From: Ascidiella aspersa
Lineage: Eukaryota
Direction of reading: 5' to 3'
Assembly: GCA_963924565.1 (NCBI GenBank)
Contig: OZ004612.1
Span: 12,028,001 to 12,092,000, forward strand
DNA: 64,000 bases
The position numbers and the translations under genes were made by a program. Shown here in pieces: positions 13,509-56,816 of the stretch (its first letter is position 1; each line of letters begins with the position of its first letter). The notes below the pieces were generated by a model, which saw only the letters and a list, made by a program, of their open reading frames with translations, was not told where the DNA came from and did no database searches.

Positions 13509-16500
13509 ATCTAATGATTTTAAAAGTCGATATGGTTTGGACAACATTCAACATACGATTTAGCAAAACTGTAGGGCGTCGAATTTCCATTGAAATTAAA
13601 AATTTGGAGACAATCCTTGTCAAATTCGTAAATACTTCCACGATTTTTTCTGATACGGTTTCAGCCCACATCATATTCTATAATTTTCTGCTCCCAAAAG
13701 AAAAAAAATATTGCATACCACGCGAAATTCAAAAACAAAACTAAAATCAACATTATAACACTCAGATTTGAAAAGCAAACCTTTCACTCCGACGCCGTAA
13801 GCGTTTTAATACGGGGTTATTCACCTACTTCAACCGCACGTCGGCGCCCGTAAAAGCGCAACACGTTGTCAGTAAAATTTAACAGACTTGTGAAAAATTT
13901 ACACCAAGCGGCATCGTGTGTAAAACACCCTTTAAGCCATCACGCAACCTACAGGCCAGCCGAACGTCCAACACTTGATCTTCGCCGACAACATTGCTCG
14001 GCTAATGTGTGTGTTTTCTTATCGGGCCGCGTCGTAAATTCTGCCGCAAACCGACCATTCATTTCCCGTAATCCGGCGCGAATTGAGTATATAAACCTGG
14101 CGCGCTCGAAGCAGCCAATTGGCATTTTGTTGGCGCGATGTGTCCCGCGGGCGATTTGCAGTAATTTAAGCGGAGACGATTTAACCAGCAAGTGCAAGGC
14201 CAGGCGAACTGTCCGACATATTGATTTTGCTGGACGCCAATCGGCGAGGAAAGCTTAGCGAGGCGTTTTCCTTGTTTTGGAGCGCTTGTTTGGATACGGA
14301 AACGTAGTATTGGCAACACTTAAAAGAGCGGAAAATTAAGAAAGGTGGTTTGTGCCTAAAGTGCAAAACGCCAGTCGTAAAAACTCTTTTAAAATCGAGG
14401 CATCCAAATATAGTTGTACAACGTACGCTATTGGCTCAAAGGCCGTGTTTTACCATTATTTATCACTCATAGAATTGTAACACCAGCCTCACGCAAGGAT
14501 TGCATTTGCAGCCTCTAAAAGTCAATTTAAAGGAAATGTCTGAATTTCTGCAAGATTGTTAAAGTGTCTTGGTTGAACTTGAAAAAAAGCGAACTGCAAC
14601 ATTGATAAAGTGCCTTGGCTAACCTTAAAAAAACTTTTTCACCAGCAATCGCCTAAAAGTTACCTTGTCAAGCCTGCGAACTTTTGCTTGCGCGATTGGG
14701 TCAGCGTAACAAGTTGAAAGATTAACTTTTTGCGCAGCGAAACCGGCCAAAGTAGGGGGTTCTTCGGCGGCGCTTCATGGGCCGACGGTTTGCGCAATCC
14801 GCCGGGCTTTGCCCTATTTACAGGGCCCCGGTATTTACGCAATGCGAAGCATCCGCAACGAGAATAAAGCCAAGAAGAAACGGGAGCCGGGAATAGCCGC
14901 AGTGGCCTCTTGCCCGAACCCCCTGAAAAACTCGTCGCGTGCGACCGCCTAAATTCGACTTTTTCTTTTTGCTTACACGACCAGACGGGTACAGGGGTAG
15001 GGTCGCCCCTCCCACAACCCCCATCCGCCTACCCCCTTCCCCGATATCGAACAGGGTGCGCCATCGAGCGGAAAGATGGCGATAGATAAAACGAGACACA
15101 AGCGGAGGTTACAGCGGTTGAAGGAACGCCCTGCGTTTAGCACGGAATCGCAGAGTTTTTCATGCACGTTTGGCAATAATGCTTTGTTGACACGCAGCAG
15201 AGGCCTTTTTTCTCGTGTTTTTGCGCAGGGGAAAAGTAATTACCCTATATAGTTAACTAGATTCTTTGCCGCTGGGCCGTATTGGGAGAAGGGTAGATGA
15301 TACTTGCTTGTGCAGAACAAATGCTGGGACCCGTCCAAATGCGGGTCTGTTTTGTTGTTGTGTTGTTCTGCCGATAAAAATTCTTGTCAGTGCATTTCGA
15401 CTCGTTGCAGCGCATTGGACTTTGCTTTGCGAAGTACTTTTAGGGGGAACTATAGAATGACGATTTTTTTTCTTTGTGCGTTTATCAGTGTTACTTCGTT
15501 CATTTCTTTGTGGTCGCATGTACTACCAAAAACGTAATCATTGTTTTCAGTTAAATACTCTTTTTCGTTTTTGTCAAATGCTCTTTTCGTTTGAGGGCCA
15601 ATTTTTAGCTGCAAACTAAAGAGATAAATATTTGAAAGCTGTCACGGTTTTATTTACTTTTCCAAAAAAAAAATTTGGGTGGGGTGGGGTGGGGGGGGGG
15701 ATTTGCATGGCACGCGAATGCCCCACCAGGTTAAGATTGCAATCAGAAAATCTGTTAAAAACAAGGAGCCGAATCCATCAAAACAGAAAGTGCTTGACCA
15801 GCAGAACAGAGCGGCGACAATTGCCGAGTGCGTACAAGAAAAACCGCTCCGCGTTGGCTATTTAAGGGGCAAGGTTGGTCGAATAATATCGTGGGCCGCA
15901 GTGGGCGGGTCGCCAGGCCTTTGCGTGACTAGCTGGACCTAATCCGAGCCATCCATCAAAAACCGTTTGGTGTGTTTTATCCTTTTGCGAGCTCGCGCCC
16001 ACGTGATGTGCGTGAGAGAGAAAGAGAGGCCGACTGACCAGCCACAGCCCTCGGCAGAAAAGAAGAGAGCAATTTTCCTTTCTCTCGCAGGTCTTAGAAG
16101 CGGGGGGGAGGCCTCGATTGGCCGCCCGGGGACGCCAAACAATCAGAAGGCCTGGGCTGCGCCGTTGGCGACAATTTGTGCTGACACGGAGGACGGGGTA
16201 ACAGGGGGATCGGAACGCCGCTTGATTTTGACACATTCACCTGTGGGCAGTTTCGGGCTAGGGGATGATCTGGTGCATTTAGGGTCTTCAAAACAACTCG
16301 AGCTGCTTGCAATTGTTGCTACTAGTTTAGACTGCTTATACAATTGTTATTTAGTGTAGGCCAGTTGGTTATTTTACAGGTGGTGGTGGATTTTAGCTTT
16401 TGCGTTTTTGCAGTTACGTCAGCACGAGCGATTACGTATCGCTTATTTCGGTCGCGTGTGTTTCTGCTGTTGTAGCAGTGTTTGGTGCGGTTGACATCGC

Positions 16501-16968
16501 AGCGCCAAGGCGATCAGGTGTCACGCGGTCGATAAGATTTTGCGTTCTGATGCGACCGTTTTCTGACCGGGGCGATTGCGGCAAAGAGAAGCAGCGTTGA
16601 ATGGAAAATCGAGGCGTTACGCAACTGCTGTGTCGGGCTAAAGTAAAATAAAATCGTCGGAAGCGCGTAATCTGTTATCCGCAGTGTAAATGTTCGCGCT
16701 ATATCTGGACGTTTACACAGAACGGCGTGGCAGTCTTTCTTCCCGCCCGCAGTATTGTAATGACAGTTTATGTTGGTTCCGCGTGTCTGCGAATATGTAT
16801 TGTCGGCCAGCGGTCGCTATTGTGTCTAAACGTAAACCCTTGAATCGCAGCGCCAAAGAAGTGTCCTCTAAGCCGTTCTTTTCTAACCTCTATTTTCCTT
16901 CTCGTGCAGCATTAAGTGCCCTCGCGTCCGCGCTTTGAAACCCGAACTTTCGACCACAAATTTCTGGA

Positions 16969-16975
16969 TATATAA
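16969..16975 (+). promoter_or_regulatory. Candidate TATA box of the FGF gene
   Basis: TATATAA in GC-rich context ~170 nt upstream of the ATG. Confidence 0.55.
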
Positions 16976-17140
16976 GCGCCAGTGCGAGAAGATCCGCCCA
17001 CACACCGCCACAGCGACGAGCAACGACGAAACGCCCCGCCGGAATCGCAACGCCGAAATCCCGCCGAAGTACACAAATGAGGTCGAGCTCCTTCGTCGTC
17101 GGAAAATAACTATGTTCGCTTCCCCCAAGTTGCCAGCACC

Positions 17141-17870
17141 ATGCTCACGATTTTCTCAACGTGCGTCACAAAGCTGCTGATCGCCCGCCCCGCCGCTGCT
17201 GCCAACCGTGACAACGTGACGTCAAACAGACGTCATCGACCGAACGTTCGCATCAACGCATTAAGTTGCGTACTCGCGCTCCTCTTGTTACTCGCCTGTT
17301 TTTCCGCCGCATCCTCAGCACCCGCATATTCCTCCACTAAAGGACTTCTAAGAAGAATGGAGGCCAGGAGCAGCGATGTTCTCCTGGAGGAAAGCCAAAG
17401 CAAACGCCTTCACCAAAAATACGATGAAGCAGAAGCGTCCCTGGCGACGCGATGCCGATCTTGCCACAGACTAAGGACTATTGGCTTGGACGTGGAGCAC
17501 GTTCTCCTTAACGCAAAGGACATCACGACTTCGCCCAAAGGACATATGCTCCGTAGAACGCTGCGCCTTTGCAAATCCCTTACTTATCAACAGTACAGGT
17601 TCGCCTGCATTCGATCCGACTCCGGGCCGATTGTTCCCTCCAACACCTTAACCGCCGAACCTCAACACGACGACCGATTAGTGACGTCACAGTCAGTCAG
17701 TGACCTCGCTGTCGTGACGTCACCGCTGCGCAGCAAGCTCCTGAGCAGGCGAAGACGTTTTTTACCCGCCGGCGACCGAAGGAGACGCCGGCTGTTCAGC
17801 AAGACCGGCTTCTTACTTCAGATTCTCCCCAACGGAAAAATCCGAGGGACGCAAAGGAAAACACAACACA
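17141..17870 (+). CDS. FGF coding exon 1 (N-terminal extension, signal peptide, pro-region, first strands of core)
   Basis: ATG in cagcaccATG context; open frame to the GTAAGT donor at 17871. The 303-aa track ORF reads through into the intron. Confidence 0.9.
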
Positions 17871-20800
17871 GTAAGTCGCTTCTATTTAATTTAATTATTT
17901 TTTATCTAAGATTGTTGGATAACTTTTTTAAGTGGTTCTTTTGGTGCGTAATTTATTTTCCAAACGGAAATGGTGCAATCAAATGGCTAGATCGCAATTT
18001 TTGTAAAAGTTACCCCCTCTTAGCCCGTTTAACCTCAAATGTTGTGCGCTAAATCGTGCGAGGCGCGAGTTTATGGACTTGCAACGAGCCGCGTCTAATT
18101 CACTCGCGCTAACATGCGAGTTTAAGTGCTTGTAGTCGAATTACCCAATAGTTGGTTTTGTGAGGGTGAAATTGCGATCATTCACGGGCATGTGAACCGT
18201 GGCCTTGTGGACAGAGTCGGGAAAATCATTAGCTTCCGTTCGCGGCCCTTGTTTCGATCAGAAAAACACAAAACTTGCTCCGCGGGCGCCTGAGCCTTTA
18301 CTCGCCCGACATGGGTATCTTGTTACGTCGTTAAGGACGCTACTTCAGTTCGCTTGCCTGCCCTATGGCCAACGTGTAAAACTGCAAGTCGAGCGGCGCG
18401 CGAGGATACTTTCGCAAGGCCCGAGGGTTAGGCCAGTCCGGCTGACCCCTTGCTTAGGTGATCTGCGCGTCGAGTGTTTACTTAGCTTTGGGGATAATTG
18501 GGCAAACAGAGTTTCTCGCCTATTTTAAGGCTCTCACGCCCTGTAACACCCTTCAGATTCGCTCCAGCCCACGCTATAGGCCACCGTATAACAAGGGGCG
18601 GTCTTGAGGACAACTATAATGCTGATTTTGCGTGGTCATCCTGCGGGTTAGGAGATGTGTTGAAAGGAAGGCGCGATAGGCCCAGGTGGGGCGGGCAAAT
18701 CAAAGTCTCGACAAAATGCAAGTAAGCACCCAGCGGTGCAATCGCAAGCAAAACAACAAGGCGTAACGTAGATGCTACGTGACCTCGACTGCGCACAACT
18801 GCGGCTTGCAAAACCCGATGACTGACGAAACGCAGTCGAACCGTTCTCAGGCCATTTTTTTTGTAAAAACACACAATTTTGTCGAGGCGAAAACGAGTTA
18901 AGCGCAAGTGTCTATAGATCCACCTAATGTTGATCCCGGTGTGCAATTTCTCTTTTTTAAATTAATGTATTCAACCGTTCTAAGGCCATTTTTTAGGTGA
19001 AAACACACAATTTTGTCGAGGCGAAACCCGGTTTTACAGTGCCTAGATCCACCCAACGTTGATCCGGGTGTGCAATTTCTCTTTTTTTAAATTAATGTTT
19101 TCGGGCACAACGCCAAGAAATCGCAAATTTCCACTGCCATGGGGGGCAATCATTTGCCGCCAGACACCGATGTTGGGCCGGATAAGGGCAAGAAGCCACT
19201 CGGCGAAGACACAACATAGGCATAACTCATAATTAGCAGCTATTTTTGCCACTGAACGTCGAACCCTGCTTTCTGCGCGCAGCGATTTGAGATAAATTTG
19301 GCGTGCCGCTTTCCACGGCCGAGCGGGTTCCCTTTGTCGGGCGTCTTAGGCGCTTATGGGATAAAGATTCGACAGCGTAACCCGCAAATATAGCTGCATT
19401 ATATTTGGGTTAGGTTTCGGCTCCACGAGTTTCGTTTCTTTTTTTTGGAAGCTGCTACAGCGCGATGCGGTTTCGGCGAATTTTTTGCTGCGGGCTTGAA
19501 GGCCCCAATGTGGAGAAGGCGCGGTCGCTAAATTACGGCACAGCCCTGCCCTGGGAACCTCGACGGTCCTGGGTAATTGATAAAGCTGGAGGGCGTGGGC
19601 AAAGTAAAATTATGGGTATTTCTCGGGCAATTGCTGTTCGACGACCTATACGGTACCCACAAGCATGCGTCCCATTAGGCCGCACCTTCTCGATTAAGAG
19701 CAATAACAACCAGATTGCCCGCTTTATACTAAAGGTGGTGCAGCCGTATACAAAGTAGGATATGAGAATATTACACAACCATTTATCTCTAATTTTGTTT
19801 GAGGTAATCCAATCATTGCCGCGCAAACAAGATTTAAGCTTTATGTAAAAACACTCTTTCGCGCAAAGTTTACGTTTTCGTTGAAAGCTAAAGCGTCCTC
19901 TTTCCACACTTGACACAAGAAGAAGAAAAAACCTTTAATCCCTTCCAGGGCCCCACTTTTCCCAAATCCGGTTTAGTGAAGCGCATTTTATTCGAAGTGC
20001 CCAACTTGCATCGTGGACACAAAAAAAACGGCCGGGCCAAGAACAACAACAAAAACTCCCTCCCGCGCTGAAAATGCTCGCGCAAAGCTGGGCCGAGCGG
20101 GTCGCCGGGGGATGATCCCAACAGCTGATCCCTTAACGCAGAAGCAGCGGTTCATCTTCCCGGTCGCGTGTAGCGAGTTTCGTTGGGCATTAGTAGAGGG
20201 CCAATGGGCGACGGGACCTTTGAACCGGCGGGCGGGCGCGAACATGAAAAGCCGCCAACTCTCGCACGCTAAGTAATCGATATGAATTGCTGGCCCGGGC
20301 TCGCGCGGCGCCTGGCTTCGTGTAGGTGGGTGTCCGGGCCCCGGCAAATCTCTGTGGGAAAACGCCATCCACGCTCGTGTTGGTTTAGGATCGGCGAAAT
20401 GCCCTGTTGATTTTCAATGGCGGAGCGGCTGTCTGATCTAGCGGACAGGTTTGACTGATGATCCCCATCACCCCCCCCCCCCCTCCCCTAACCTAGCTCA
20501 GCCCGCGCTGGGCTTAATCAGCGCGCCCAAAACAAGGCGGGCGGCGCTGCCTTTGCCCCCTGACTTTCGCACGCACGCACGATCGCCGACCAGCCAAGAG
20601 CGAGAAAGTTCAAAATAGTTTTTTTTTAATTTAGTATGAATCTAAGCGCGCAAAGGTGAATCGTTTAGTAAGGGGGGTCAAGCTATTTACTTCTATTTTT
20701 TCACAAACTTTGGCATTTTAGTAACACACTCTGATTACCATTCAGACTTCGGCTACAGATTTTATATAGAAATCAACTTACAAATATATTTATTCCGTTT

Positions 20801-23800
20801 AATGTTAACCCTCTCCCGCAAGACAACGGCGCTATATATAGCATCTCTGCTGTCTTAGCACTATTTATAGATATTTATCAAATGACCATAACACCAGCAG
20901 CCCACCAGCGAGGCGACTAAAACAACGCCGACGCGCTTCGCTGTCCACTGTTCAGTCATAATGGCCCTGGATCATTATTCACATAGAGCGCTAGAATTCC
21001 AGAGTCCCGCGGTAAACAACCCTACCAAATCCACAGCCGGTAGCGTGCCCAAAGTGCTGCTGCTTCTGCTGAGCGATTGAAGACGCTGTGGTCTCGCTGT
21101 CGCGATAGTTGACATAAGGCTCGCGGCTACGATAATCTTTTCGGCCGGCGGTGCGATGGGTGACAGTGGGCGAATGACTTCTGTGTCAACATGACGTGAG
21201 AAGGGACCGCGATGCGACCCCCTGCGGCGCGGCAAAGGCGGCGTCGATCCGCGCCTGGGCACACGCCCAAGTCTAAAAGCGAGCACGCATTTTTTGCCCC
21301 GCTATTGTTACCGAATGCCGACGCCTATCGTATGCAAAGCGGCTCCAAAAACCAAAATCGCCAAAGTTGAATCAGCGCGGATCGCGTTGCTTAAAATTAA
21401 AGGTCGTTTTTCACATAAAAAATGCTCTTCCGTGTTTTAGCCCAAAGGAGTTGATCATCGTTTAATCGACCCGCAATCAAGCTTGTGTGTTTAGTGGTAA
21501 AATGAAACTGCACAGTCAACATTGTTTCGCCCATCTTAAAAATTACAGAGTCTTCAAAAAACAACTACAGGATACAGAAACAATTAAGGACAACCGCTTT
21601 CAAAAAAATGTACTAATAGGAGCTAAGTAATGGCATTATATTGCATGCTCAAGTTCGGCATTTTGAACTTGATCACAGTCCAATGCGCGCAAGGTACGAT
21701 TTTCGCTCTTCGCGTTTCGTTTTGTTCATAAATATCGTAGCGTAAAATCGGATTGGCAATACGCTCGATTGCATAATTGCGCTATTAACATGAATCCCTG
21801 ATTGAAGTGAACCGGCAACTATGTGAGTTATCCTCGGTTGCGTGCGATTAAATTAGAACAAGATGGACTTTTCTTCTGGTTTCGGTCTGGAAAACCCCTA
21901 GACTCACAATAAAAGTTCAAAAGCCTAATAAAATCACTGTATATGGTAAATACAGGCTTGGGTTAAAAACAATAACTATAGAGATCCAGTCAAACTTTAT
22001 TCAGGCGAACTCACCAAATATAAAAAAGATATCAACAAAACGACAAATACAATCTGTTAAATATAAAATATTTGTATAACATCACTATAGACAAACTTTC
22101 GTCCATCTAAGTTTCAATGTGAATTTTTTTTTAAATCCACTCTAAATAACTAAATCACTGAAAGCGAATGCAGACTGGGATGTGAATGAGCGTCGTCCAG
22201 AACCCGGCCAACACATCAGCACTGCAGGTGTGTCGGCATCGATTTGCCAAGAAAACTTGTTTTTCGTAAATAGACTTGCTGCCATGAGCCGCCTATGGTG
22301 AGGATGAGCAAATATTTGTCGTTCCGATCACGCTAGCGTCGCTGGAACGAAATTCGGACACGTCCAAAACGCCAAACCTTTACAATTTCTGTTTGTGATC
22401 TTATTTTGGCTTGTCCAATTTATACCACATGATAAAAAATGCATCACAAATCTTGCAACCTGTGATCAATTTAGGACGGGGTCAACTGCGTGGTTAAACT
22501 TATATTAACTATACGAATTTTTTTATTGGCGACTTAATTAAGATAATTCGATTGGACGGGTTAACAGTCAGTAAAAGGTGCATTAAGAGTAGACTGTTAG
22601 CAGTAGCCCAACCTTGAATGTTCTTCCGACATCTAGGCGTTGGGGCAACGGCAAATGTACACTGGCGGTGACGACCCAGTTTCTCGGCACCCTTGTATAT
22701 TTGCGAAACATTGCGATAAACAGCTTAACGGAAGATAAATGGATTTGGAACTGGAGCGGCGGTTCGCCCAGCAATATTTTTGTTGGCGACCTTTTAGCCC
22801 CTTTTTCTCTCCCCCTTTGCCGCGTGGCGACCCAAAGAACCCCAGAGGCTCGAAAAGCCGCAATCTAATTAAGTGCTGGCGCTGCCGGGCTGTTTAAAAA
22901 AAGCTCGTTTTGGTGAAACACCACTCTACGTTCAAGCCAAACTTGGTTGCTCGCAATGGCTGGTTGCTTTTTAATTTGCGCGGAAATCATTTGGGGGAAT
23001 TTACACGGCAAAATAGCATTAGGTCAGGCACGCTAATATTTCAGGCGAACATCACACAACACTATAAGCAAATAGATTGAGGAATAAGCAGATTTTAGCT
23101 TTTATGCTTTTATGTAATTTCTTGCTATTCGCGTCATTCGTGCTGAGCGCGTTTTATCTTTTGGTACTTTTCATCAAAATTGGAAAAAAATCTAAATTCA
23201 CGCGGCCCCAACACAAAAGAAAAGCGAATTAGAGTGTTGTCGAGGGCGAAAGGGTAAAAATAGCCCTAAGTCGTTAACGGGAAATATAACTCTTGGGAGA
23301 TAATGAGTCATTCAGAAGGCCGAGAGTCCCTGCTTGACCTTATTCCCGTATTGGGGATCGCGCAGCTCTGACGTCAATGGTGACGTTGCACCTGCTCCTT
23401 TAAGAAGCAACCTACCCTTCGAATATCGACTGCCGTTTCATAATTACGTGTCATAACTCGAAACCGCTTTTGCGTTTGCGGTTCTTGACTTTTGTCTTGA
23501 GAACGTTTGGCGCAAATAAAGGTTCGGGCGAATTCGCGCAAATCCAAACGTAAAGAAGAAAAGTGGCCACTGCCTACGTAAGCGAATGGGCGAGCCCCCA
23601 GAAGTGGCCCATGAATAATGATATGACAACCTTCAACGCATAAACGCGAGTTCAAATCGCACTCAAGTACCGACTTTGTGTTATACAAATCCCGCTGTAC
23701 GAATTTTGAAGCAGGCGCTTTCTCTTAACTGTAAAAGAAATGCTCTGCTTTGTACAGGGCTATGTTTTGTATGTTCTGGTAATCTCTCTGCCCGAGAGCG

Positions 23801-26800
23801 ATCTTTAAAGGCGAGTCTTGTGCTTTGTATGGTTCCAGGGTAGATTGCATGAAAGGTGCCATTGCAACAGCGCTTTGACTGTAGCGTTTCTATAGCAGCA
23901 AGCAGCTAAACCCGGGCAAATTAACATTCCTTTAAGGTGTTTCTGCTTGCCAGGCGCGGATTTGCAAGACAAAGGCAACTGATAGTATTCAAAGGCACCT
24001 TGTTACCGGTTACCACAACAGAGCTAAAAATAGCCGAAAATTAGCGTTTCTTTTCGCGCGATAATAAAACCGTTAGGCCTCGAACGGCGACACCGAATAT
24101 GGAGTTGTTTCGCGGCCTTTGACAAAACAACACGGATGATCTATTAATGCCAGCTTAAGCCGCGTGCTCACAACAAAGGCGACTCGACTCACATGCAGGC
24201 CGCCCCCTGAAACTGAGCCGGCGCGGCGCCCAATCGGCCCAAACACAACACCACGCGGACCCGGATAGTTTGTGTCGCACACACGCCGCTCTCGTTCGCA
24301 GGTAAACGATGAACCGCGTGGGGAGCTGAGAATGTTTGCACAGCAAAGACGACTAGGCTCATCTGCGTGGTTTTTACTTTGACCCCGATGATTTCGGGTA
24401 AACTCGGCGGACAAAGGGTGCTGTTGCCGGTGAAAATATAACGCCGATGTCGGGGCCTGTTTTGGGTCATCAGGATTTTCTTTTCGCCCGCTGACTGACA
24501 GAAATGACAATTGCAGGCGATCCTGCCAAGCTGGGGATACTTTTGGCGCAATGTAACGCTCAGGCGCAGGGTTAGGGAACGCGGTGCCACAATAATTCCC
24601 ACGAAATTCGCCTTTAAATATACGCGTCGGTCAGTTCGAGCGTCCAGCGCGCTCGCTGTTGTCCCGACGCTCAAGGGGTATACCTTTGTTTACGTCATAA
24701 CAACTATTAAAGTGAGGCGTAACGTAATCGCCGAATCGCCGCCGCGGTAAGCCGAGAGGACGTAATCGCCGGAGCCCGTCGGTGAGACAAAGGCGCAAAG
24801 ACAACACTACAAGCCGAACAGTGCTCGGCCTGGGCATAGCCGGGTATATCGGTTTCAGTTGTGAGCGACCGCTGACCAACCGAAAAACACAGCCAAGCAT
24901 CCCTTCTCCCATTTCTGTTGGGCTGTTTTTGCTGGGTAGGCGACCGCTGGCGAATAGGTAAACACGCGCCCTGGCAAGCGCTTGCTTTAAACTAGGAGTA
25001 GGCGGGGGCGAGGGCCCGTGGCCCCGGGTATTATCCCTTACGGGCATCGGCGGCCCGGGCAGACGCACTACGGTTTCCGGCGGTGCCCCTGGGAAAGTGG
25101 TCCCTGTTTGTTTAACTCATCACGAGAGCGCGGCCTTGCTATCCTTAGCGCGATTAGTTGCTTGCTTGCGCGCACGCCACTGCTGGACAAGCCAGGGGTC
25201 GGGGGGAAATGTCAGACAAGGCGATCGCGTTAATAGCGAGCCTTCAAACGCGGCATGCACAGCAACGACAACACTCCGCAAAGCGGCCTAACCCGCGAGA
25301 GCTGCTGGACAATAGAAACTGCGGCCTGGAAGGCTGTTCCTGCTTGGCATACGCGCGCGTCTTATGCTCAGCTAATGGTGTCGGGACTGTCGCGAATACA
25401 GATTCTAAGCCAACGGTTTGACATTAGCCTCCAGCTGTTGCGCCCATTCGCCTTGCAAATGACACGCAAATTGAATTAAATGCCGACGAAAATTACCCGA
25501 AATGATTCACGAGCGACTTCTCTATACGTGTTGTTCGTTTGTTTTCAAGCCGCGAACAAGGGTTAACATTACAGGTGGAGTCTTATGTGGTGGTATATTG
25601 GTTTATAATTAAACATTGTTGTAATAAATTAGGAGAGTGTAGATTAGAACAACGGTTTCGCTCATTTGTTAGGTCGCCAATGGCAATGCAACCCAAACTA
25701 ATACAAATCTCTACAATAAAAAAAATTGTTTTCGTAACTACCGGGAAACACTGATTCACCATCCAACGAAAAAACATATATCTTGAACGTTCGTAGCTGC
25801 CTAGGAAAACAATGAGAGCACGCGTAATAACAAACTAACACTGACATGAATCACTTTCGCAAACAAAAATATTGTGTTATGTTTTGCACGTTTTTATGAA
25901 GTGAGGTTAAAATTAATAGGTTTTAAGACAACTTAATTTTTCGCGTATATAGCCTCGGAATTAACATAAATCATAAGCTCCCCGAAAACTACCCTTGGCA
26001 ACCGCACAGTAAAATGGTGGTTTAAATATTGCAACTCAGTCTCGCTTAGGAGAAACACCATCCCTCTACAATCTCCCAATACCATGGGTCCCGACGAAAT
26101 GTCGCGTGGCAACATTAGCCGTTATTCCCCATTAGCGGTCGTCGCCCGCGGTCGCTGCTCGCGCGACCCTCGTTTCACTGTGACGTCACTAAGGGATTCG
26201 AGACACTTTCGAAATCCCAGGTGCGGGATCCCTGTCAATCGCGAGCGAGGCGTGAGTGAATTAAAATCGACGCGCCAAATTGAGGGGCAAAGTACAGGCT
26301 TCGACTGCGTTAACCACTGCGTTCAATAATAAAGCGGATTTTGAAAGGTAATTTGACCTTGTCATATGTCCCCAAGTTGCAGAATAGAACTTGATTTCTT
26401 GTCCGATGTCAGAAAATAACGTAACGAACCTCTATAACCGAGGCGTTAGGGGTGTTTTAAAAATCCATCAACAGAGTTCTAAATAAAAAAAAATGTTTTT
26501 TATGTTGTTTTTTTTATTGCAAATGCACACGAGAGTTAGGTTGTGTAGTATTTTTGGGGTTGCTTTTTACAAAGGTTTTCCATTGTAAATTACGCCGTCC
26601 CGGGACATGAAGAACGCTATTGTATGCCTTGACGTTTCGGCGATAAAAGGACGTTTCCAATTTCTCTTTAGCTTACATCGCAGCTCGAAAAAAGCGGATA
26701 ACAAACTAAGCCTCACCGACACAAATTCCTACCGATTGTGGACGGAAAGATTCCAAACGAGAGAGTTAAAAACTTCACGCGAGGATCCCATCGATCTAGC

Positions 26801-29800
26801 GTCGCCGCGGTCGCACGCATAAGGGGGTCATCCGAATAGGGGCGACCCGTCAGCCATCGACGTCTTATCGCGAGTCGGCCTGTTTGCGATCTGCCAGCCC
26901 GGCACCTGCGACCTCGATCTTGGGCCTTGACGGATCGCTTTTAGCTGCTGTTGTCGGCTCTCCATTCCCCCCTCTTCCCTGCAACTGCGTTTTTAGGTGG
27001 CGGTCGCGGCCAGAGGGATTATCGCCGCGATTTTTGGTGCTGTGGCGCCTTTGGGGGTTCGTAATGCGCGGGGCAAACAGTGAAAAAGAGCAAGACCGGG
27101 TTTGAGCTTACCCGACTTGACATTTAAGTTTACCTCGTCTTGTATAGGAAAACAGCACTTTTTGCCTTGTTACGCCTTGCCAAAGCCTGGGAATAATTTA
27201 TTTTTGAATTTAGTATAAATAAGGCAACCTAAAGACAAATGCAATCAACATGGTGAAGGCCATTTACACGTGGGTTAAAAACGTCACAATGAAAGTAGGA
27301 ATGTTAACTAGGTTGGAAATTTTATCTTTGTTTACCTTTTTTTTTTTTTTCTGGCATCAGTTACACTTACTTCCCTATATATCGGTCCAACAGTCCATTC
27401 CTCACCGTCAGTCTCAATTCCCAGCTTGGCAAGTTAGGATGTCCGGTATGTTCAAGCGAGTGACTAGGAAACGCGGCAAGTAGACAGCCGGCTCGTCAAA
27501 ATTGTTACAAACCCCGGGTTAAATCGCTATTGGAAGGGAACGAGAAGAGAATGTCTCTACAGATCCGCCGCTGCGGACACCCGTGCGAGGCTAAGCAGCA
27601 AACAATGCGATCTTATCGACGACTTCATACAAGAGCGCCGCGCGCCCGCGCTTTGCACGCAAGCCCTGCATTAACAGTGGAGCGGCAGCGAGGGTCGATG
27701 GGGCGCCTGGTCGGCCTGCCATAGGGCGCTGGCGGGCAAGTCCCATAATCCCCGCCACAGTTTTCGCCGCCCGTTTCGCACGCATACGCGCACGGCAAGA
27801 ATGCGACCGACAGCGACGCTAGCCGTTTTGGTATATAGTTGCTTTTTGGGTTTATTTTTGCTTGCAAGGGGACAAACAGGAACTGTTTCCTGCTGGCCGA
27901 AATTCCGGATCGGTCAGCGCGGAGACTGCTGTCTGGCCCCGTAACTCTCACACGGCGGCCACATGGTTCTTGGTCAAAACTGAGACCAGTCAATTTTACC
28001 TTAGCCCTCTACGCAGCTTCCTCACACTCAACGTATTGAAATTATATCGGTTTCCATCGATAATATTGCTATACATAGGCTACAGTTCACCTGCAATACC
28101 CGAAAAGCGATTTACCTGCACCTATAGCTACTGTATAAGCAACCCCAAAAGATCTCATATTCTAATGTTTTTACATTGTACGTTCGTGGCTTCGTGCTTG
28201 CTAACGTCCTGTTTTTTTCTCGCAGCCATAATCGAGATCCAGTCGGTGGCGGCCGGGGGAGTGGTGCGCTTCGTCAGTCCTGCTACCGGAATGTTTCTCG
28301 CCATGTCCACCAAAGGGATCCTCTTTGGCTCGGTGAGTTGTGAGAGTTTTCCCGAAAAACTGCTTGTCGCCAAACGCTGTTCGCCTAATCGACGGGAATA
28401 CAGAGGCACTGATTTTATGTGCCGAAATCCCCTTAACTTCCTTGATGCGACCACACTGGTCAAACACCTAACGGTTGTTAAATAGGACAATGGGGACGAG
28501 GGGAACTAATTCAAACAACTTAAGGGTATTTCACAGAATTCTCCACTTCATCTGCAAAAGTTCTAAACTGCTTTTGTATCACAGATGTGCACTATATATG
28601 CACATATGAATACAGGATGGGCCAAAAGTAGGATTACAGTTATTCCACAGCGTTGGCTTGGAAAAAGAGGTAGCATTGAATGACCACCACGGTCACCTGA
28701 CCTGACACCAATGGTTTCTTTTTGGGGGGTGTTGAAAAGAACAAGAAGAACCCCAAAACAATAAATTTACTTTTAGACTTTTTCAAAAAAAAATTGTTTC
28801 AAAAGGGATTGCGTCACCTGGCGAAAACGTCCTCCGAAACTCAAGGCAATAAAAAGCGCGCGGCATTTGGCAGGACACGCGAATCGCTTTTGCAAAGTCA
28901 CGCGACACGCGAAATATGCTGCCAGGGGGCGGAGGGCACCTAAACACGGCGCGGCGCAAGACCCTTTCTCCGACCGAAGATTACGCAAAAGTAACAGGAT
29001 TAGCGTCGAAGGCCGCGGGCGAGCTTGCGCGCTAATGCGAGCTCAGAGGGGTCCGCGAAAAACATTACAGCTCGCGATTGTAGATTGATGTTTACAAGGC
29101 GGCCGCTGCACAGCCTAAGCTGCGTTTGATGTGTATCGCCCGCAAGTCCGACCGTAAATTGTTTACAAGGCGATTTCTCGGCGCGTAAACAGATCGCATC
29201 CTCGAGCCTGGGAGAAGGGGCAAAAATGGGTGGGAGGGGCCTTTCGGCGCCGCCCCGATTTTAGGGGTGTTGCAAGCACTCGATGTGCGTGTAAAGGGAC
29301 CTGGGAGCCGCGGGGTAGCCAGTCAAAATTGTTTTCGAACATGCTGGCAAACAGACTCAGTAGCGCTTTGATCAATCACGGCCATTTTTCCGTTCTCGGC
29401 CACTCCCAGTAGTTTCACGGTGCGTTGGCAGCGAGATATGCTAATTGTTTTTCGTCCTGCGCGCCACTGAAGGTGGACCCCTTGGCCCCTCACAGGTCCC
29501 CTGGGCCTCTATTACAAAGGAGGGGTCGATGGCAAAAAAAGACAAACAGACTGATGTGTCGTCAACGGCTGATTACGACAGCTGGTGAAATACCGCGCTA
29601 AAACGTGCAGTTACTGTCTAAAATACGTGCGGGCCCTTGGGAATAGTTATCTGTTGTATTGTAACGCAACCTAATTGGCGTCTAAACGTTTATACACATG
29701 CGGTAATCTGTTAAAGAAACACCTCAAAGGTTTTTAATAAAAGGTATCCTTTTTACGCTTGAGCATTGATCCTAAACACGTCTTACCGCATAGACTATTT

Positions 29801-30239
29801 TGCATCGCTGAAATCGGTAGCAATAAATACGTTTTCACATGGCTTATACAATTTACTTACTACACACAAACTGTAAAAAAATAGTTTTTCATTAGTTAAT
29901 GATTTTGAAAGATCCTATTGAAAACTTCTTGGATCGCAATTTGAGAACCACCACGCTATAAGGTGTATGTCGTTTACATAACTCAGCTGAACATCCTAAG
30001 CTTCCTATATTTAACAAGATGCTTTTACCTTACAGCACCAATACATCCCGGAGCAGTGCGATTTCGTGGAAGAGCCGCTCGATAATCACCAGTCGACCTA
30101 CCACTCGTTGGCGCTGCCACGACGGAACCCGGGCGGCAAAAAGTGGTTCGTGGCCCTGGGCCGACACGGCCAACCTCGCAAGGGCAGTCGGACGGCCCAG
30201 TGGAGGGACTCTGCCCAGTTTCTGCCCCTCGACTTTTAA
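17141..30239 (+). CDS. Fgf3/7/10/22: Fibroblast growth factor, FGF3/7/10/22-like; 3 coding exons (17141-17870, 28226-28332, 30036-30239), 346 aa
   Basis: Exons join in frame (730+107+204=1041 nt) with GT-AG introns of phase 1 and 0 at the classic FGF positions. Core: GDRRRRRLFSKTGFLLQILPNGKIRGT...IIEIQSVAAGGVVRFVSPATGMFLAMSTKGILFGS...CDFVEE...WFVALGRHGQPRKGSRT...SAQFLP. GD-R-RRLFS and SAxFLP resemble FGF10/22; CxFVE resembles FGF3. FGF identity is firm; the subfamily is by eye and less certain. Confidence 0.92.
18839..19098. repeat. ~130-bp tandem duplication in FGF intron 1
   Basis: 18839-18968 and 18973-19098 share AACCGTTCT-AGGCCATTTTT, AAAACACACAATTTTGTCGAGGCGAAA, TAGATCCACC and GGTGTGCAATTTCTCTTTTTTAAATTAATGT. 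Confidence 0.9.
28226..28332 (+). CDS. FGF coding exon 2
   Basis: Branch point CTAAC at 28201, tttttttctcgcag acceptor, GTGAGT donor; encodes IIEIQSVAAGGVVRFVSPATGMFLAMSTKGILFGS. Confidence 0.92.
28613..28775 (+). mobile_element. Tc1/mariner transposon relic in FGF intron 2
   Basis: TA + CAGGATGGGCCAAAAGTAGG terminus, then degenerate FPQRWLGKRGSIE*PPRSPDLTPM..FFWGVLK..KNPKTI (the WPPRSPDL catalytic-region motif) with a stop and a frameshift. Confidence 0.8.
30036..30239 (+). CDS. FGF coding exon 3
   Basis: ttttaccttacag acceptor; HQYIPEQCDFVEEPLDNHQSTYHSLALPRRNPGGKKWFVALGRHGQPRKGSRTAQWRDSAQFLPLDF-TAA. Confidence 0.92.
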   Translation, partial: HQYIPEQCDFVEEPLDNHQSTYHSLALPRRNPGGKKWFVALGRHGQPRKGSRTAQWRDSAQFLPLDF

Positions 30240-31238
30240 GCGGCGCCCTTCAGACGAGGGCCGAAAGGAAAATGAAAAGAAGACGAGACGCGGTCGCTGG
30301 TGGCGCTAGAGAGCGACACCAGCGTTGGCACGTGACGTGTGATGACGTGCCTCCTGAGCAACTACCCTCACTGACAAGTTCGGCCCTAAACGCCAAAGGT
30401 CCCCGTCGAAGAACCTTTCGAAACAGAGACGACTTAACGGACAGCAATCGCTGCCGCTGTTTTCGACCAGCGATTGCGATTCCCCTTATACGAAATTGCA
30501 CATCTTTTTGCCCCCACACACTTATACAGTCTTCAATTTTTCAGCGCAAGTGTTTCTTCGTTCTTTTAAGTTTTCGCGCACTCTCTCGTATTACTGTTTT
30601 GTTTTTCGCCTTACTTCAAACCGCAACACCAGCTTTATTATTTTTTCGCGTTGATTCAAAATGTTTTTTCTTCTCTTATGCTTTTGTCATGTTTTGATTT
30701 GCTTTTTTTGACGTTCGGTGGACGAAAAATCCACCTGATAAGTTATACGGTTGACCGTGACGTCACGCACAGGATGACGCAATGGACTGCGGTCCAAGAA
30801 GTTGGCACAGATTTTACCTCGGCACTGCTAAAACCTGTAACGTATAACGAACCGCACATCTGCAGCGTGCTTTTTTCGTTTAACGCAAATGTAGAACGGA
30901 AAATGTTTCCCAACACCAATTTGACGTTTCCGAAGTAATATTCGGTACAAACCAATAAACGTATAATATAGCATTAACACGCGACTGCAGCTAGAGCATT
31001 AGAGACATTTTTGTTCGCTGGCACAGGTTACCTCTTACCACAAACGACTGCCATGTAATCACCGGTCAACGATTAACGCTTATACCTGCTGCGACTGGCG
31101 CAATGAGCAACTCATCTCGCGAGTACCAAGAAGACAATCTACCTATTTAACGCAACGATTTATAATTATTGCCGTGTGTCACCAATGTGTCATTGTTGTT
31201 GTTCTTCGTTGTGTTAAGTTGCAAAAGACGAGTTCCAG

Positions 31239-31244
31239 AATAAA
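31239..31244 (+). terminator. Candidate FGF polyadenylation signal (a proximal one is at 30954-30959)
   Basis: AATAAA ~1 kb after the stop, followed by T/GT-rich sequence, where the GC-rich 3'UTR-like composition ends. Confidence 0.4.
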
Positions 31245-31832
31245 CTTCTGGCATTGAGAAAGTTGCGTATATTTTTGGTGCGGCTACAAAGGGTTTTAAG
31301 AGTTGAAAGACGATTAAGTCACTTCAGGACTTACTCCCATTGGGAGTGATAAAATTAGCTGAATTTTATTTGGGATATACTTTTAGTTTCAGTTGAGGCT
31401 TGTAGAAATCTCATCGGCTCTGTTTATTTAGGAAAAGCAATCGCTATTTACCAGTGTTATTATTCGACCAAATTGTTTATAAGGAAACGTCTGAAATGGT
31501 CGACCAGGCTTTCAGACCAGAAAAGTAGCAAAACTGGTTAACTTACGTGAACTAGCTGCGAAAGAGCAGAGTGAATATAGAAGAGCCCAAAATAATAATA
31601 TAATTGGTTTATTTTTTTGTCTGTATATACAAGGACGTTTTTGTAAAGCTATATATCTAGACTTTATACAATTACTCCAATTTACAGTAACACTAACAAA
31701 ATCATGACAATTAAACGTGAAAAATCGAAAATGGTTATATTGTGATGATTCCGGTTAAAATATAGTACTGACAAACGATTAAGGTATACTTTAATAATAT
31801 ACCGGGTAGGCTACCTTTGGAAAGGTTGTAAC

Positions 31833-32589
31833 TAGGGCGATTATTTTTTGACCTAAAATATTGGAAATTTTGACCTAAAAAATTGAAATTTTGACAAATT
31901 TTGACCTAAAAATATATTTTTTTGACAAAATTTTGACCTATAAGAAATAAATGTATTTAAACAAAATATTGCTTTTTGAAGTACTACATTAGTGCCCTAA
32001 AGTCAACCACACGTTTTACTGTTTTACTAACTACAGATTTCAACAAAATTCAGTTATTTTTTCAGGTTTATGCATACTCTTGGAATGACTAGTTCATATT
32101 TTGTTATTTCAAAAAAAGTATTGAAGTACCAAAGAAAAACAAGACGCTGGTTATTTTAGAAAAATGTTGTGTAAATAGTTGAAATACAAGGTATGAAAGG
32201 TAAAAATGACAAAATACTGTTCAATATTTGTCCAAATCAGAGATACACACTTACGTAAAGCAAAAACTAAGTTGGAGCCCAACCTAATGCGATAAACTAG
32301 GTCTGGGTGGTTAATTCTACCGGCTCGCGCGTATTCCGTATATTGCTATAGTGAAGATATAATACCATTATAATGTCGTTGCATATCATTTAAATCTATT
32401 TTTTGTGATCAAACGTAAACTAAACGACAATCTTAAAAATATGAATATATATTTTTTTTTTAATTTTGTAAACTATCTAGGTGCATATCTTAAGGATTTT
32501 GACTTGAAAGATTTTGACAAATTTTGACCAAACGTGTAAATTTTGACAAAATTTTGACTTTTTTCACAAGTCAAAAAATAATCGCCCTA
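31833..32589. mobile_element. hAT-like MITE with TTTTGAC subterminal repeats
   Basis: TIRs TAGGGCGATTATTTTTTGAC / GTCAAAAAATAATCGCCCTA; TSD GTTGTAAC/GTTATAAC. Confidence 0.85.
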
Positions 32590-32703
32590 GTTATAACCAA
32601 TATATGTTGGCCTAACCAGGTTTGTATAACAAGCAAGGCCAGGCTAGGAAAGACAATTAGCCTTCGGTGAGTTTCGAACTCTAACTGATCTCACAGTACA
32701 TAC

Positions 32704-32980
32704 CAGTGGTTCTTAACCGGGGTTCCGCGGCACCCTGGTTGCCATTTCTAATGCCCAAGGGTGCCGAGAAATATTTGATAAATTTTAAGAATCTGATTTT
32801 TGCTCAAGTCTTACAAATTTTGGTGTAAAATTAGAGTGGAATAAATCCATTTATAACTCCCTACGTTGTGTAGAGTTGATGTGTGTTGTTTTAGTTTTGT
32901 TTATTGTGACAGTCTAGTGATTTTACCCACCGAAAAATCTTGTAGGGGTGCCATAGGCAATAAAAGGTTGAGAACCACTG
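32704..32980. mobile_element. hAT MITE
   Basis: TIRs CAGTGGTTCTTAACC / GGTTGAGAACCACTG; TSD GTACATAC/GTATATAT. Confidence 0.85.
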
Positions 32981-33118
32981 GTATATATAGCTATATACGC
33001 GGATTTGATGGTTCTGTTGCTTGATGCTAACTGTTGATCTCCAAACACAAAATTGCATGTACGAACAGGAAGCAGCGCGCTATGTTGCTGTGGTCGTTTT
33101 AGACATGCGCTCTTTTGA

Positions 33119-33220
33119 CCCTGTGTAACTCAGTTGGCAGAAAGACGGGCTCGGTATGGCCGAGTGTTAGAAACTCACCTCAGGCCAGATGTTTTTCTAG
33201 CCCTGCCTTGCTTGCAATAG
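33119..33220 (+). mobile_element. Old tRNA-derived SINE copy (an opposite-strand fragment lies at ~32630-32700)
   Basis: CCTGTGTAACTCAGTTGGCAGA A-box-like head and GTTTTTCTAG-CCTGCCTTGCTTGCA body matching the reverse complement of the 61.5-62 kb copies. Confidence 0.55.
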
Positions 33221-33448
33221 AATCCTGATTAAGCCACTGATTTCGGTAATAAAGTTTGTTTTTCAGTAATAACGCAACTAATTTCGATAACAACGTTTCA
33301 GGCGGCACCCGAAATAAAATGAAAAGGTATATATGACTTGTGATTGCACAAAAATATGTGTTAAGCATTTCTTGACTTTTCCGCAAGAGACTCTATTTAA
33401 ATTATCCGTGGTTTCCACATAAAGACACGACATAGGCATGGAAGATTT

Positions 33449-56200: not shown

Positions 56201-56530
56201 AATACATCCCGGAACCTGAATAGTAATTGAATAGGACATCTTCGTCTAATATAACGCAAAGGCTCGTCTTTAAAAGATGTTTCCCCAATTTCGAGATGTG
56301 GAAGTTTCTAACATCTGTTATAACAGGACTACTACTGGGAGATTCTGGAAGGGTTGCAAGTTCTGAAATATCTAAAACATAAGAAAAATTAATCCTGTCT
56401 ATATGGAGACACTGTTACTGCGTAGGAAGCACTTAGGATGCTTTTCGAGAATCCTAAAAGTAGGCTACCGTCAAAATAACAATATAAACTGCCTCTATAT
56501 AAACTGTTGCTACCAGGCATGGTTAAACTT

Positions 56531-56816
56531 ACCAGAGGAGCTGTTTTTGATTTATATTATTAAAATTACCAGAGGAGCTGTTTTTGATTTATATTATTAA
56601 AATTACCAGAGGAGCTGTTTTTGATTTATATTATTAAAATTACCAGAGGAGCTGTTTTTGATTTATATTATTAAAATTACCAGAGGAGCTGTTTTTGATT
56701 TATATTATTAAAATTACCAGAGGAGCTGTTTTTGATTTATATTATTAAAATTACCAGAGGAGCTGTTTTTGATTTATATTATTAAAATTACCAGAGGAGC
56801 TGTTTTTGATTTATAT
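56531..56816. repeat. Perfect 37-bp minisatellite, ~7.7 copies
   Basis: Unit ACCAGAGGAGCTGTTTTTGATTTATATTATTAAAATT at 56531, 56568, 56605, 56642, 56679, 56716, 56753 and 56790 (partial); no spacers. Confidence 0.97.

What the first reader, a model, noticed from the sequence alone, without database searches (positions are those of the whole stretch)
17141..17800. FGF built like a pre-pro-protein: displaced signal peptide, long pro-region, RRRR convertase site releasing a 140-aa core
Seen: the only strong hydrophobic stretch is aa 40-59 (ALSCVLALLLLLACFSAASS), after a basic 39-aa leader with no second Met. About 145 aa of non-FGF sequence follow, then S-R203-R-R-R206 immediately before the core; F207-F346 is 140 aa, about a minimal beta-trefoil. 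Known: R-x-K/R-R is the furin consensus, and vertebrate FGF3/7/10/22 have only short N-terminal extensions. Inference: this ligand may be activated or range-limited by pro-domain cleavage or by a type II membrane tether, as in TGF-beta/neurotrophin-style precursors. A second polyArg (aa 213-217) could be an inactivating cut or an NLS.
Basis: partly seen in the sequence, partly recalled or inferred. Interest (0 to 1): 0.75.

Follow-up and report, generated by a model that had tools for sequence, protein, structure and literature searches.

The report
Sea-squirt FGF with cysteine-bearing pro-domain
This sea-squirt growth-factor gene (Fgf7/10/22) encodes a late signal sequence, a long cysteine-bearing front piece and a furin-type motif kept in all seven related sequences compared, so it is likely made as a precursor and cut to a 140-residue factor, as shown for the fly FGF Branchless.

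Summary
Observation confirmed. The three-exon model gives 346 aa: one Met before a hydrophobic stretch at aa 40-59, 143 aa of non-FGF sequence, RRRR 203-206, then 140 aa. A 2430-nt spliced contig matches the model's length exactly and keeps exon 1 whole. The gene is the ascidian Fgf3/7/10/22 (Fgf7/10/22) orthologue. All 7 of 7 sequences compared have a 35-53-aa leader before the hydrophobic stretch and an R-x-[K/R]-R site 2-4 residues before the core's GD motif; 4 of 7 share a C-x2-C...C-x11-C block of no known family. Best reading: a cleavable long signal peptide plus convertase removal of a pro-domain; cleavage itself is untested. Convertase-cut FGFs are known (Branchless, FGF23; Xenopus FGF3 is cut N-terminally), so this is a new variant. 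New here are the long, cysteine-bearing pro-domain in a chordate FGF and the conserved late signal peptide; nine literature searches showed no paper describing either in ascidians. In passing: exon 1 carries three CRE palindromes in coding sequence.

The parts
16765..17140 (+). 5' untranslated region (at least 376 nt) with four upstream ATGs; uORFs 17077-17109 (10 aa) and 17112-17180 (22 aa, overlaps Met1 out of frame)
   Evidence: X2 contig starts at 16765; uATG list
17141..17257 (+). aa 1-39: long basic n-region before the hydrophobic stretch; single Met
   Evidence: leaders of 35-53 aa in 6 of 6 relatives
17258..17317 (+). aa 40-59: hydrophobic h-region and small-residue c-region, predicted cleavable signal peptide (likely cut near A57-S59)
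   Evidence: hydropathy; (-3,-1) rule; SignalP not available
17318..17746 (+). aa 60-202: pro-region, predicted helical to about aa 159, then a low-confidence Ser/Thr-rich linker
   Evidence: AlphaFold2, low confidence; similarity to three relatives
17453..17608 (+). cysteine block C105-x2-C108 ... C144-x11-C156
   Evidence: same pattern in P0001, P0002, P0007
17747..17758 (+). R203-R206, R-x-[K/R]-R convertase consensus, 4 residues before the GD motif
   Evidence: the listed variant at 17758 is silent
17759..17870 (+). start of the FGF core in exon 1; R213-R217 (17777-17791) is the basic first beta-strand motif; donor GT at 17871
   Evidence: Pfam FGF starts at aa 214; FGF7/FGF10 alignment via P0008
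28226..28332 (+). exon 2 (107 nt), FGF core
   Evidence: Pfam E 3.9e-5; length and depth fit the X2 contig
30036..30239 (+). exon 3 coding part to the stop codon
   Evidence: aligns with named orthologues
30240..31252 (+). 3' untranslated region with AATAAA at 31239
   Evidence: X2 contig ends at 31252
17217..17224 (.). TGACGTCA (CRE-type palindrome) in coding sequence, read as V-T-S; two more at 17682-17689 and 17715-17722

Best explanation
This is the ascidian Fgf7/10/22 gene, and its 346-aa product is likely a secreted pre-pro-protein: a long signal peptide predicted to be cleaved near aa 57-59, a cysteine-bearing pro-domain, and a furin-type site likely cut in the Golgi to release a 140-aa FGF core. 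Shown: gene structure, spliced transcript, motifs, and their conservation in 7 of 7 sequences. Inferred: entry into the ER despite the 39-aa leader; signal-peptidase cleavage; two disulfides in a helical pro-domain; cleavage after R206. The most likely purpose, by analogy with Drosophila Branchless and vertebrate FGF3, is control of export, sorting, range and potency of the ligand rather than a strict off/on latency.
For: Spliced contig keeps exon 1 whole. Top hits are named Fgf3/7/10/22 of Phallusia and Ciona; core identity 60/121, 63/134 and 60/133. R-x-[K/R]-R lies 4, 4, 4, 3, 4, 4 and 2 residues before GD in the seven sequences while its letters vary (RRRR, RKKR, RKRR, RRKR, RHKR, RHKR, RTRR) and the pro-region ranges 61-143 aa; per-sequence shuffle chance 0.003-0.045. 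It is the only such site between h-region and core in each sequence. Released cores of the four full-length proteins are 140-144 aa, the size of the active 140-aa FGF7 form (PMC10173505; PDB chain of 140 aa with the GD motif at 8-9). Clean (-3,-1) sites behind the h-region in relatives. Precedent: Furin1 cuts Branchless upstream of its FGF domain (PMC6504889); Xenopus FGF3 needs an N-terminal cut at Arg45-Asp46 (as cited in PMC7109841).
Against: No cleavage, secretion or protein was observed. The seven sequences are related, so the shuffle values are not independent, and the searches that found them included the site in the query, which favours relatives that keep it. Three relatives (P0002, P0005, P0007) are unnamed exon-1 read-throughs; P0007's cluster also holds a aa longer, so its start is uncertain. 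The window's own uncharged run is 29 aa and could anchor. Pro-region similarity to the two Ciona proteins is not significant (z 0.9 and -0.7). Models are weak (mean pLDDT 51 and 44.5). The raw RNA run X4 gave no reads on the exons (6% of the run read).
Confidence: 0.72

Rival explanations
1. Latency model: after the cut the disulfide-held pro-domain stays bound to the FGF core (or is needed to fold it) and keeps it inactive until released, as in TGF-beta or neurotrophin precursors. This adds to the best explanation rather than replacing it.
For: Four-cysteine block with fixed spacing in 4 of 7 sequences and four cysteines in both Ciona proteins; pro-region similarity z 13.2, 7.3 and 5.0 to three relatives; helices predicted in both models. 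The N-terminal region of FGF3 retains it in the Golgi (as cited in PMC7109841).
Against: The pro-region halves in length in Ciona and keeps only 2 Cys in P0005. It is not acidic (22 K/R, 15 D/E), so it is no obvious mask for the basic core. Uncut Branchless still signals (PMC6504889).
Confidence: 0.15
2. Type II membrane tether: the hydrophobic stretch is an uncleaved signal-anchor, and the convertase cut sheds the FGF core from the membrane.
For: Basic leader of 35-53 aa (N-in orientation); 19-aa windows are favourable on a recalled biological hydrophobicity scale in 3 of 7 sequences, the window's included; its uncharged run is 29 aa.
Against: Uncharged run only 12 aa in P0008 and P0005; insertion unfavourable in 4 of 7 on the same recalled scale; typical signal-peptidase sites followed by a charged or polar residue in relatives.
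Confidence: 0.12
3. Dual fate: the long basic leader weakens signal-peptide recognition so that part of the protein stays cytosolic and enters the nucleus through basic runs, as in CUG-initiated vertebrate FGF3.
For: N-terminally extended FGF3 is split between secretion and nucleus (PMC11726770, PMC1626074). Here the extension is fixed by the only ATG in 7 of 7 sequences, and basic runs are present.
Against: Leader sequences are poorly conserved (z 0-3.5), and their one shared motif may be a DNA element. The loop poly-basic insert seen in Phallusia and Ciona is reduced in this protein. No localisation data.
Confidence: 0.15
4. No processing: the basic run is only part of a heparan-sulfate-binding or receptor-contacting N-terminal arm, and the protein acts full length with a neutral linker.
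For: FGF N-termini are often basic (established knowledge); one motif in one protein is common by chance (30% of shuffles); two of four listed exon-1 variants change residues in the linker.
Against: P4 and P1 arginines are invariant and P2 is K/R in 7 of 7 while P3 varies (R, K, H, T), which is the convertase pattern rather than general basicity.
Confidence: 0.13

Closest known systems
Ascidian Fgf3/7/10/22 (Fgf7/10/22): Phallusia mammillata CAB3245885.1, Ciona savignyi H2ZB91, Ciona intestinalis 'fibroblast growth factor 3/7/10/22'
   Same: Orthologue by best hits; same late hydrophobic stretch, pro-region and site. In Ciona it is expressed in the ventral neural tube, needed for notochord convergent extension, and its knockout arrests tail absorption (as cited in PMC11733497).
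   Different: Longest pro-region of the set (143 aa against 61-64 in Ciona); the poly-basic loop insert late in the core is reduced; the first strand is pure Arg.
Drosophila Branchless (Bnl)
   Same: Signal peptide, long N-terminal pro-region, Furin1 cut upstream of the FGF domain; cleavage governs sorting and range (PMC6504889).
   Different: Bnl has a normal 31-aa N-terminal signal peptide, is cut 82 aa before the FGF domain, is 770 aa and GPI-anchored (title of PMC9203819). Here the site abuts the core and the protein ends with the core. No homology of the pro-regions was tested; independent origin is likely.
Vertebrate FGF3
   Same: N-terminal cut needed for full activity in Xenopus; N-terminal region controls Golgi retention (PMC7109841); a CUG-initiated form has a displaced signal peptide and a dual secreted/nuclear fate (PMC11726770).
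   Different: Pro-pieces proposed for vertebrate FGFs are 10-27 aa (PMC7109841), against 61-143 aa here; the extension there is optional, here it follows from the only ATG.
Vertebrate FGF7 (KGF) and FGF10
   Same: GD-x-R-x-R/K-x-L first strand aligns; the stable active FGF7 form is 140 aa, lacking 23 N-terminal residues (PMC10173505).
   Different: Short N-terminal pieces. The 140-aa FGF7 form starts 7 residues before GD, the predicted product here 4. That vertebrate FGF7/10/22 carry an R-x-x-R motif just before that start is my recall and was not tested.
FGF23; Drosophila Pyramus and Thisbe
   Same: FGFs processed by convertase-type cleavage (PMC2923630, PMC7109841).
   Different: Cut on the C-terminal side of the core; in FGF23 the cut inactivates.
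TGF-beta/BMP and neurotrophin precursors
   Same: Order signal peptide, pro-domain, R-x-x-R, mature ligand.
   Different: Mature part is a cystine knot there and an FGF core here; no sequence or fold match of the pro-domain was found; latency is untested.

Membership tests
FGF family (Pfam PF00167) | FGF core domain | tested here: met
   Exon 1 piece E 5.4e-4, exon 2 E 3.9e-5 (above cut-off), exon 3 alone no hit; core 45-50% identical to three proteins that pass the cut-off by far
Ascidian Fgf7/10/22 (Fgf3/7/10/22) | Closest relatives are the named orthologues, with similarity outside the core | tested here: met
   5 hits among 1.84 billion representatives; both named ones are ascidian, the best Phallusia Fgf3/7/10/22, matched over aa 25-242
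Ascidian Fgf7/10/22 (Fgf3/7/10/22) | Tree placement against all paralogues (Fgf-L, Fgf9/16/20 and others) and synteny | not tested
   No paralogue or vertebrate full-length sequences could be fetched; no genome held
Convertase-processed pro-ligands (Branchless type) | ER-targeting signal | tested here: inconclusive
   Hydrophobic stretch and (-3,-1) sites in 7 of 7, but 35-53 aa from the start; no SignalP, no experiment
Convertase-processed pro-ligands (Branchless type) | R-x-[K/R]-R site between pro-region and ligand domain, conserved | tested here: met
   7 of 7, 2-4 residues before GD
Convertase-processed pro-ligands (Branchless type) | Cleavage at the site in cells, dependent on furin | not testable with these tools
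   needs expression or proteomics
TGF-beta/neurotrophin precursors | Cystine-knot mature domain | tested here: not met
   Mature part is an FGF core with one Cys
TGF-beta/neurotrophin precursors | Pro-domain that binds, folds or silences the ligand | not testable with these tools
Type II membrane-anchored ligands | Uncleaved transmembrane anchor of about 19 or more residues without a signal-peptidase site, conserved | tested here: inconclusive
   Possible in the window's protein (29-aa uncharged run), unlikely in P0008 and P0005 (12 aa); peptidase-type sites in all seven
Known pro-domain families (Pfam, PDB folds) | Sequence or fold match of aa 60-202 | tested here: inconclusive
   Only sub-threshold Pfam rows that differ between relatives; fold searches on low-confidence models gave generic helical bundles

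The most novel reading that the evidence does not exclude
Ascidian Fgf7/10/22 is a chordate FGF with a folded, disulfide-held pro-domain of an undescribed family that stays with or gates the ligand until a convertase releases it, so that where furin acts sets the direction and timing of the floor-plate-to-notochord and metamorphosis signals; the short cleaved N-terminal pieces of vertebrate FGF3/7/10/22 would be remnants of the same ancestral processing site.
Probability: 0.2. Interest if true: 0.75.

Novelty: new variant of a known kind. Interest (0 to 1): 0.5.

Why it matters
Chordate paracrine FGFs are usually treated as small ligands that are ready once the signal peptide is off. A conserved pro-domain and convertase site in the closest invertebrate relatives of vertebrates would add a control step to a ligand that guides notochord intercalation and tail absorption in Ciona, where the site can be mutated and tested within days. 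It would also tell whether N-terminal processing of the FGF3/7/10/22 group is ancestral, and whether the sorting role of cleavage found for Branchless recurs in chordates. The gene itself is known and cleaved FGFs have precedent, which caps the interest.

Tried and rejected
No genome is held for this window, so no synteny or paralogues. Word-based protein search with exon 1: 0 of 2674 candidates passed; with the six-row alignment: only 3 of its own members among 8000 candidates; with the Ciona savignyi core: 2 of 88, one new. No vertebrate or amphioxus full-length sequence was obtained. The metagenome scan gave one locus, L001, an exon 1 that I read as a vertebrate FGF4/6 type and not an orthologue; dropped. 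P0003 and P0006 were left out of all counts as longer calls of the same cluster as P0007. The run search listed no holder on record as RNA. Pro-domain family: no Pfam row above cut-off; Atlas feature search without FGF gave no usable hit and its structure rows were generic; fold searches gave Z up to 8.2 on helical bundles and 5.1 on coiled coils, and Foldseek nothing at E <= 0.001. A saposin-like reading of the cysteines (recalled pattern) found no support in these lists and lacks two of the six cysteines. Rejected: alternative upstream in-frame start (stop 60 nt before Met1); splicing out of the pro-region (contig colinear over 16765-17870); the second poly-Arg as a conserved cut (3 of 7). 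Supplements that may bear on conservation could not be read: the FGF alignment of PMC11733497, which covers 11 ascidian species, came with its rows cut, and Table SII of PMC7109841 was not held as text. The primary FGF3 paper PMC395335 is not held. Earlier scan findings: none returned.

Full report
1. What is there. The finding covers most of exon 1 of a three-exon FGF gene on the + strand. Exons 17141-17870, 28226-28332 and 30036-30239 have GT-AG ends and give 346 aa. ATG 17141 is the first in-frame ATG, and the next Met is aa 73. The strongest hydrophobic window of exon 1 is aa 40-58. RRRR is aa 203-206, the part behind it is 140 aa, and Pfam's FGF model begins at aa 214. Every number in the finding checks out.

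2. The region is transcribed as modelled. Four runs were laid on 14500-33500. X1 and X3 cover introns evenly and behave as DNA. X2 is unlabelled, but it is empty in most intron bins and holds one 2430-nt contig on 16765-17870 and 30035-31252. The lengths 1106+107+1217 add up to 2430, the depth in the exon-2 bin (2.04) equals the value expected for 107 nt (2.06), and the contig ends behind an AATAAA. So a spliced transcript contains leader, hydrophobic stretch, pro-region and site. X4, raw RNA reads of which 6% were read, showed nothing on the exons. Four variants are listed in the coding part of exon 1 (128 further differences of the whole stretch were not shown): two silent, one of them in R206, and two that change linker residues 190 and 192.

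3. Identity. A search of 1.84 billion representatives with exon 1 gave 5 hits: Phallusia mammillata Fgf3/7/10/22, a Ciona savignyi FGF, and three unnamed exon-1 products. A later search added Ciona intestinalis Fgf3/7/10/22. The core is 45-50% identical to the three named proteins, and the pro-region is closest to Phallusia. The gene is therefore the ascidian Fgf7/10/22 orthologue, by similarity; no tree was built.

4. Conservation of the layout. I compared seven sequences: the window's, P0001, P0002, P0004, P0005, P0007 and P0008. P0003 and P0006 were left out as longer calls in P0007's cluster. All 7 have their hydrophobic stretch 35-53 aa from the first Met, with no Met close to it. All 7 have exactly one R-x-[K/R]-R between that stretch and the core, 2-4 residues before the GD motif. 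P4 and P1 are always Arg, P2 is Lys or Arg, and P3 varies. The pro-region between varies from 61 to 143 aa. Shuffling gives a chance of 0.003-0.045 per sequence for a site in the last 12 residues. Two limits apply: the sequences are related, and the queries contained the site. The four full-length proteins would release cores of 140-144 aa.

5. The pro-region is not a plain linker in part of the set. The window's protein, P0001, P0002 and P0007 share C-x2-C, 34-38 residues, then C-x11-C; the two Ciona proteins have four cysteines in a shorter block; P0005 has two. Local alignment of pro-regions gives z 13.2, 7.3 and 5.0 for the first three relatives, 2.9 for P0005 and nothing significant for Ciona. 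AlphaFold2 on six-row alignments draws helices across the cysteine block at pLDDT of about 50-70, but both models are weak overall and neither folds the core. No Pfam family, Atlas cluster or solved fold was matched; with such models that is inconclusive.

6. Signal peptide or anchor. SignalP was not available. By simple rules, every sequence has small residues at -3 and -1 shortly behind the hydrophobic stretch, the uncharged run is 29, 20, 20, 21, 18, 12 and 12 aa, and a recalled hydrophobicity scale favours membrane insertion in 3 of 7. A cleavable signal peptide with a long basic n-region fits the whole set; an anchor cannot be excluded for this species.

7. The second poly-Arg. R213-R217 is the start of the first FGF strand. 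The orthologous stretch of P0008 aligns with the basic motif of solved FGF10 and FGF7 chains, and an active FGF7 form starts just before this motif with it intact (PMC10173505). It meets the furin consensus in 3 of 7 ascidian sequences. It is ordinary; an NLS role remains possible only if some protein escapes the ER.

8. Mechanism. Most likely the precursor enters the ER, loses aa 1 to about 58, folds with disulfides in the pro-domain and is cut after R206 by a furin-type enzyme in the Golgi (all inferred; confidence 0.72). The best-tested analogue is Branchless: a signal peptide, an FGF domain at aa 243-379, Furin1 cleavage 82 aa upstream of it, and an uncleavable form that still signals but is mis-sorted and short-ranged (PMC6504889). 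Xenopus FGF3 needs an N-terminal cut for activity, and the N-terminal region of FGF3 holds it in the Golgi (PMC7109841). I therefore favour control of export, polarity and potency over strict latency. Rivals, not all exclusive: latency by a bound pro-domain (0.15), dual secreted/nuclear fate as for CUG-initiated FGF3 (0.15; PMC11726770, PMC1626074), no processing (0.13), type II tether (0.12).

9. Novelty. The gene is known and convertase-processed FGFs are known. What I did not find described is the conserved late signal peptide, cysteine-bearing pro-domain and site in ascidian Fgf7/10/22. Nine searches of the held library listed no such paper, and a 2024 study of tunicate FGF evolution has no occurrence of 'furin' or 'cleavage' in its main text. 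Subscription papers, including the first descriptions of the Ciona genes, were not searchable. Verdict: new variant of a known kind, interest 0.5.

10. What I saw of each paper. PMC6504889: passages. PMC2923630: passages. PMC11733497: passages, supplement list, one supplement search and part 1. PMC1626074: passages. PMC10173505: passages. PMC7109841: passages and section 3.5. PMC11726770: passages. PMC9203819: search listing only. Antoine 2000, Kiefer 1993 and 1994, Shi 2009 and Treen 2014: only as cited in these. The furin consensus is as given in PMC6504889; the (-3,-1) rule, the name CRE for TGACGTCA, the saposin pattern and the hydropathy scales are recalled.

11. Side finding. All three V-T-S tripeptides of exon 1 are written GTGACGTCA, against 0.11 expected under synonymous resampling (p about 1.5e-4). 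The window holds 13 such palindromes against 0.57 expected, and 3 of the 13 fall in this 730-nt exon (p about 4e-4). The six relatives have 15 [V/L/M]-T-S before the core against 1.5 expected, which is the reading of the palindrome in this frame. The one shared motif of the leader may thus be a DNA element inside coding sequence; orthologue DNA could not be read, and one run has a variant that breaks the third site.

Noticed in passing
window 17217-17224, 17682-17689, 17715-17722 (also 30758 in the 3' UTR): Three perfect TGACGTCA (CRE-type) palindromes inside coding exon 1, each read as V-T-S; [V/L/M]-T-S is tenfold enriched before the core in the six relatives (15 against 1.5), hinting at conserved regulatory elements within the exon.
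   Followed up: partly
window 1-64000: 13 TGACGTCA palindromes against 0.57 expected from dinucleotide shuffles; most extend to a 10-base palindrome-like context.
   Followed up: partly
window 16765-17180: Four upstream ATGs in the transcribed leader; a 22-aa uORF from 17112 overlaps the main start out of frame and could damp translation. A TATA-like stretch near 16969 and an acceptor-like site at 16910 lie inside the contig, so other 5' ends or trans-splicing are possible.
   Followed up: partly
P0001 aa 283-286, P0004 aa 227-231, P0008 aa 228-231: Phallusia and Ciona orthologues carry a poly-basic insert late in the FGF core that fits the furin consensus; the window's protein has a shorter insert without it.
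   Followed up: partly
window 8000-31000: The gene lies in a GC-richer block (about 44-51% against 32-39% further downstream) with a 10.4-kb first intron and no other long ORF that I could assign, like a developmental regulatory landscape.
   Followed up: no
window 28650-28750 and 31600-33300: High-copy repeats (contig depth hundreds of times above background), probably small transposable elements.
   Followed up: no
window 56523-56816: Tandem array of 7.9 copies of a 37-bp unit at 99% match.
   Followed up: no
L001 1945-2295: A metagenome contig holds what looks like exon 1 of a vertebrate FGF4/6-type gene, probably host DNA; not an orthologue.
   Followed up: partly
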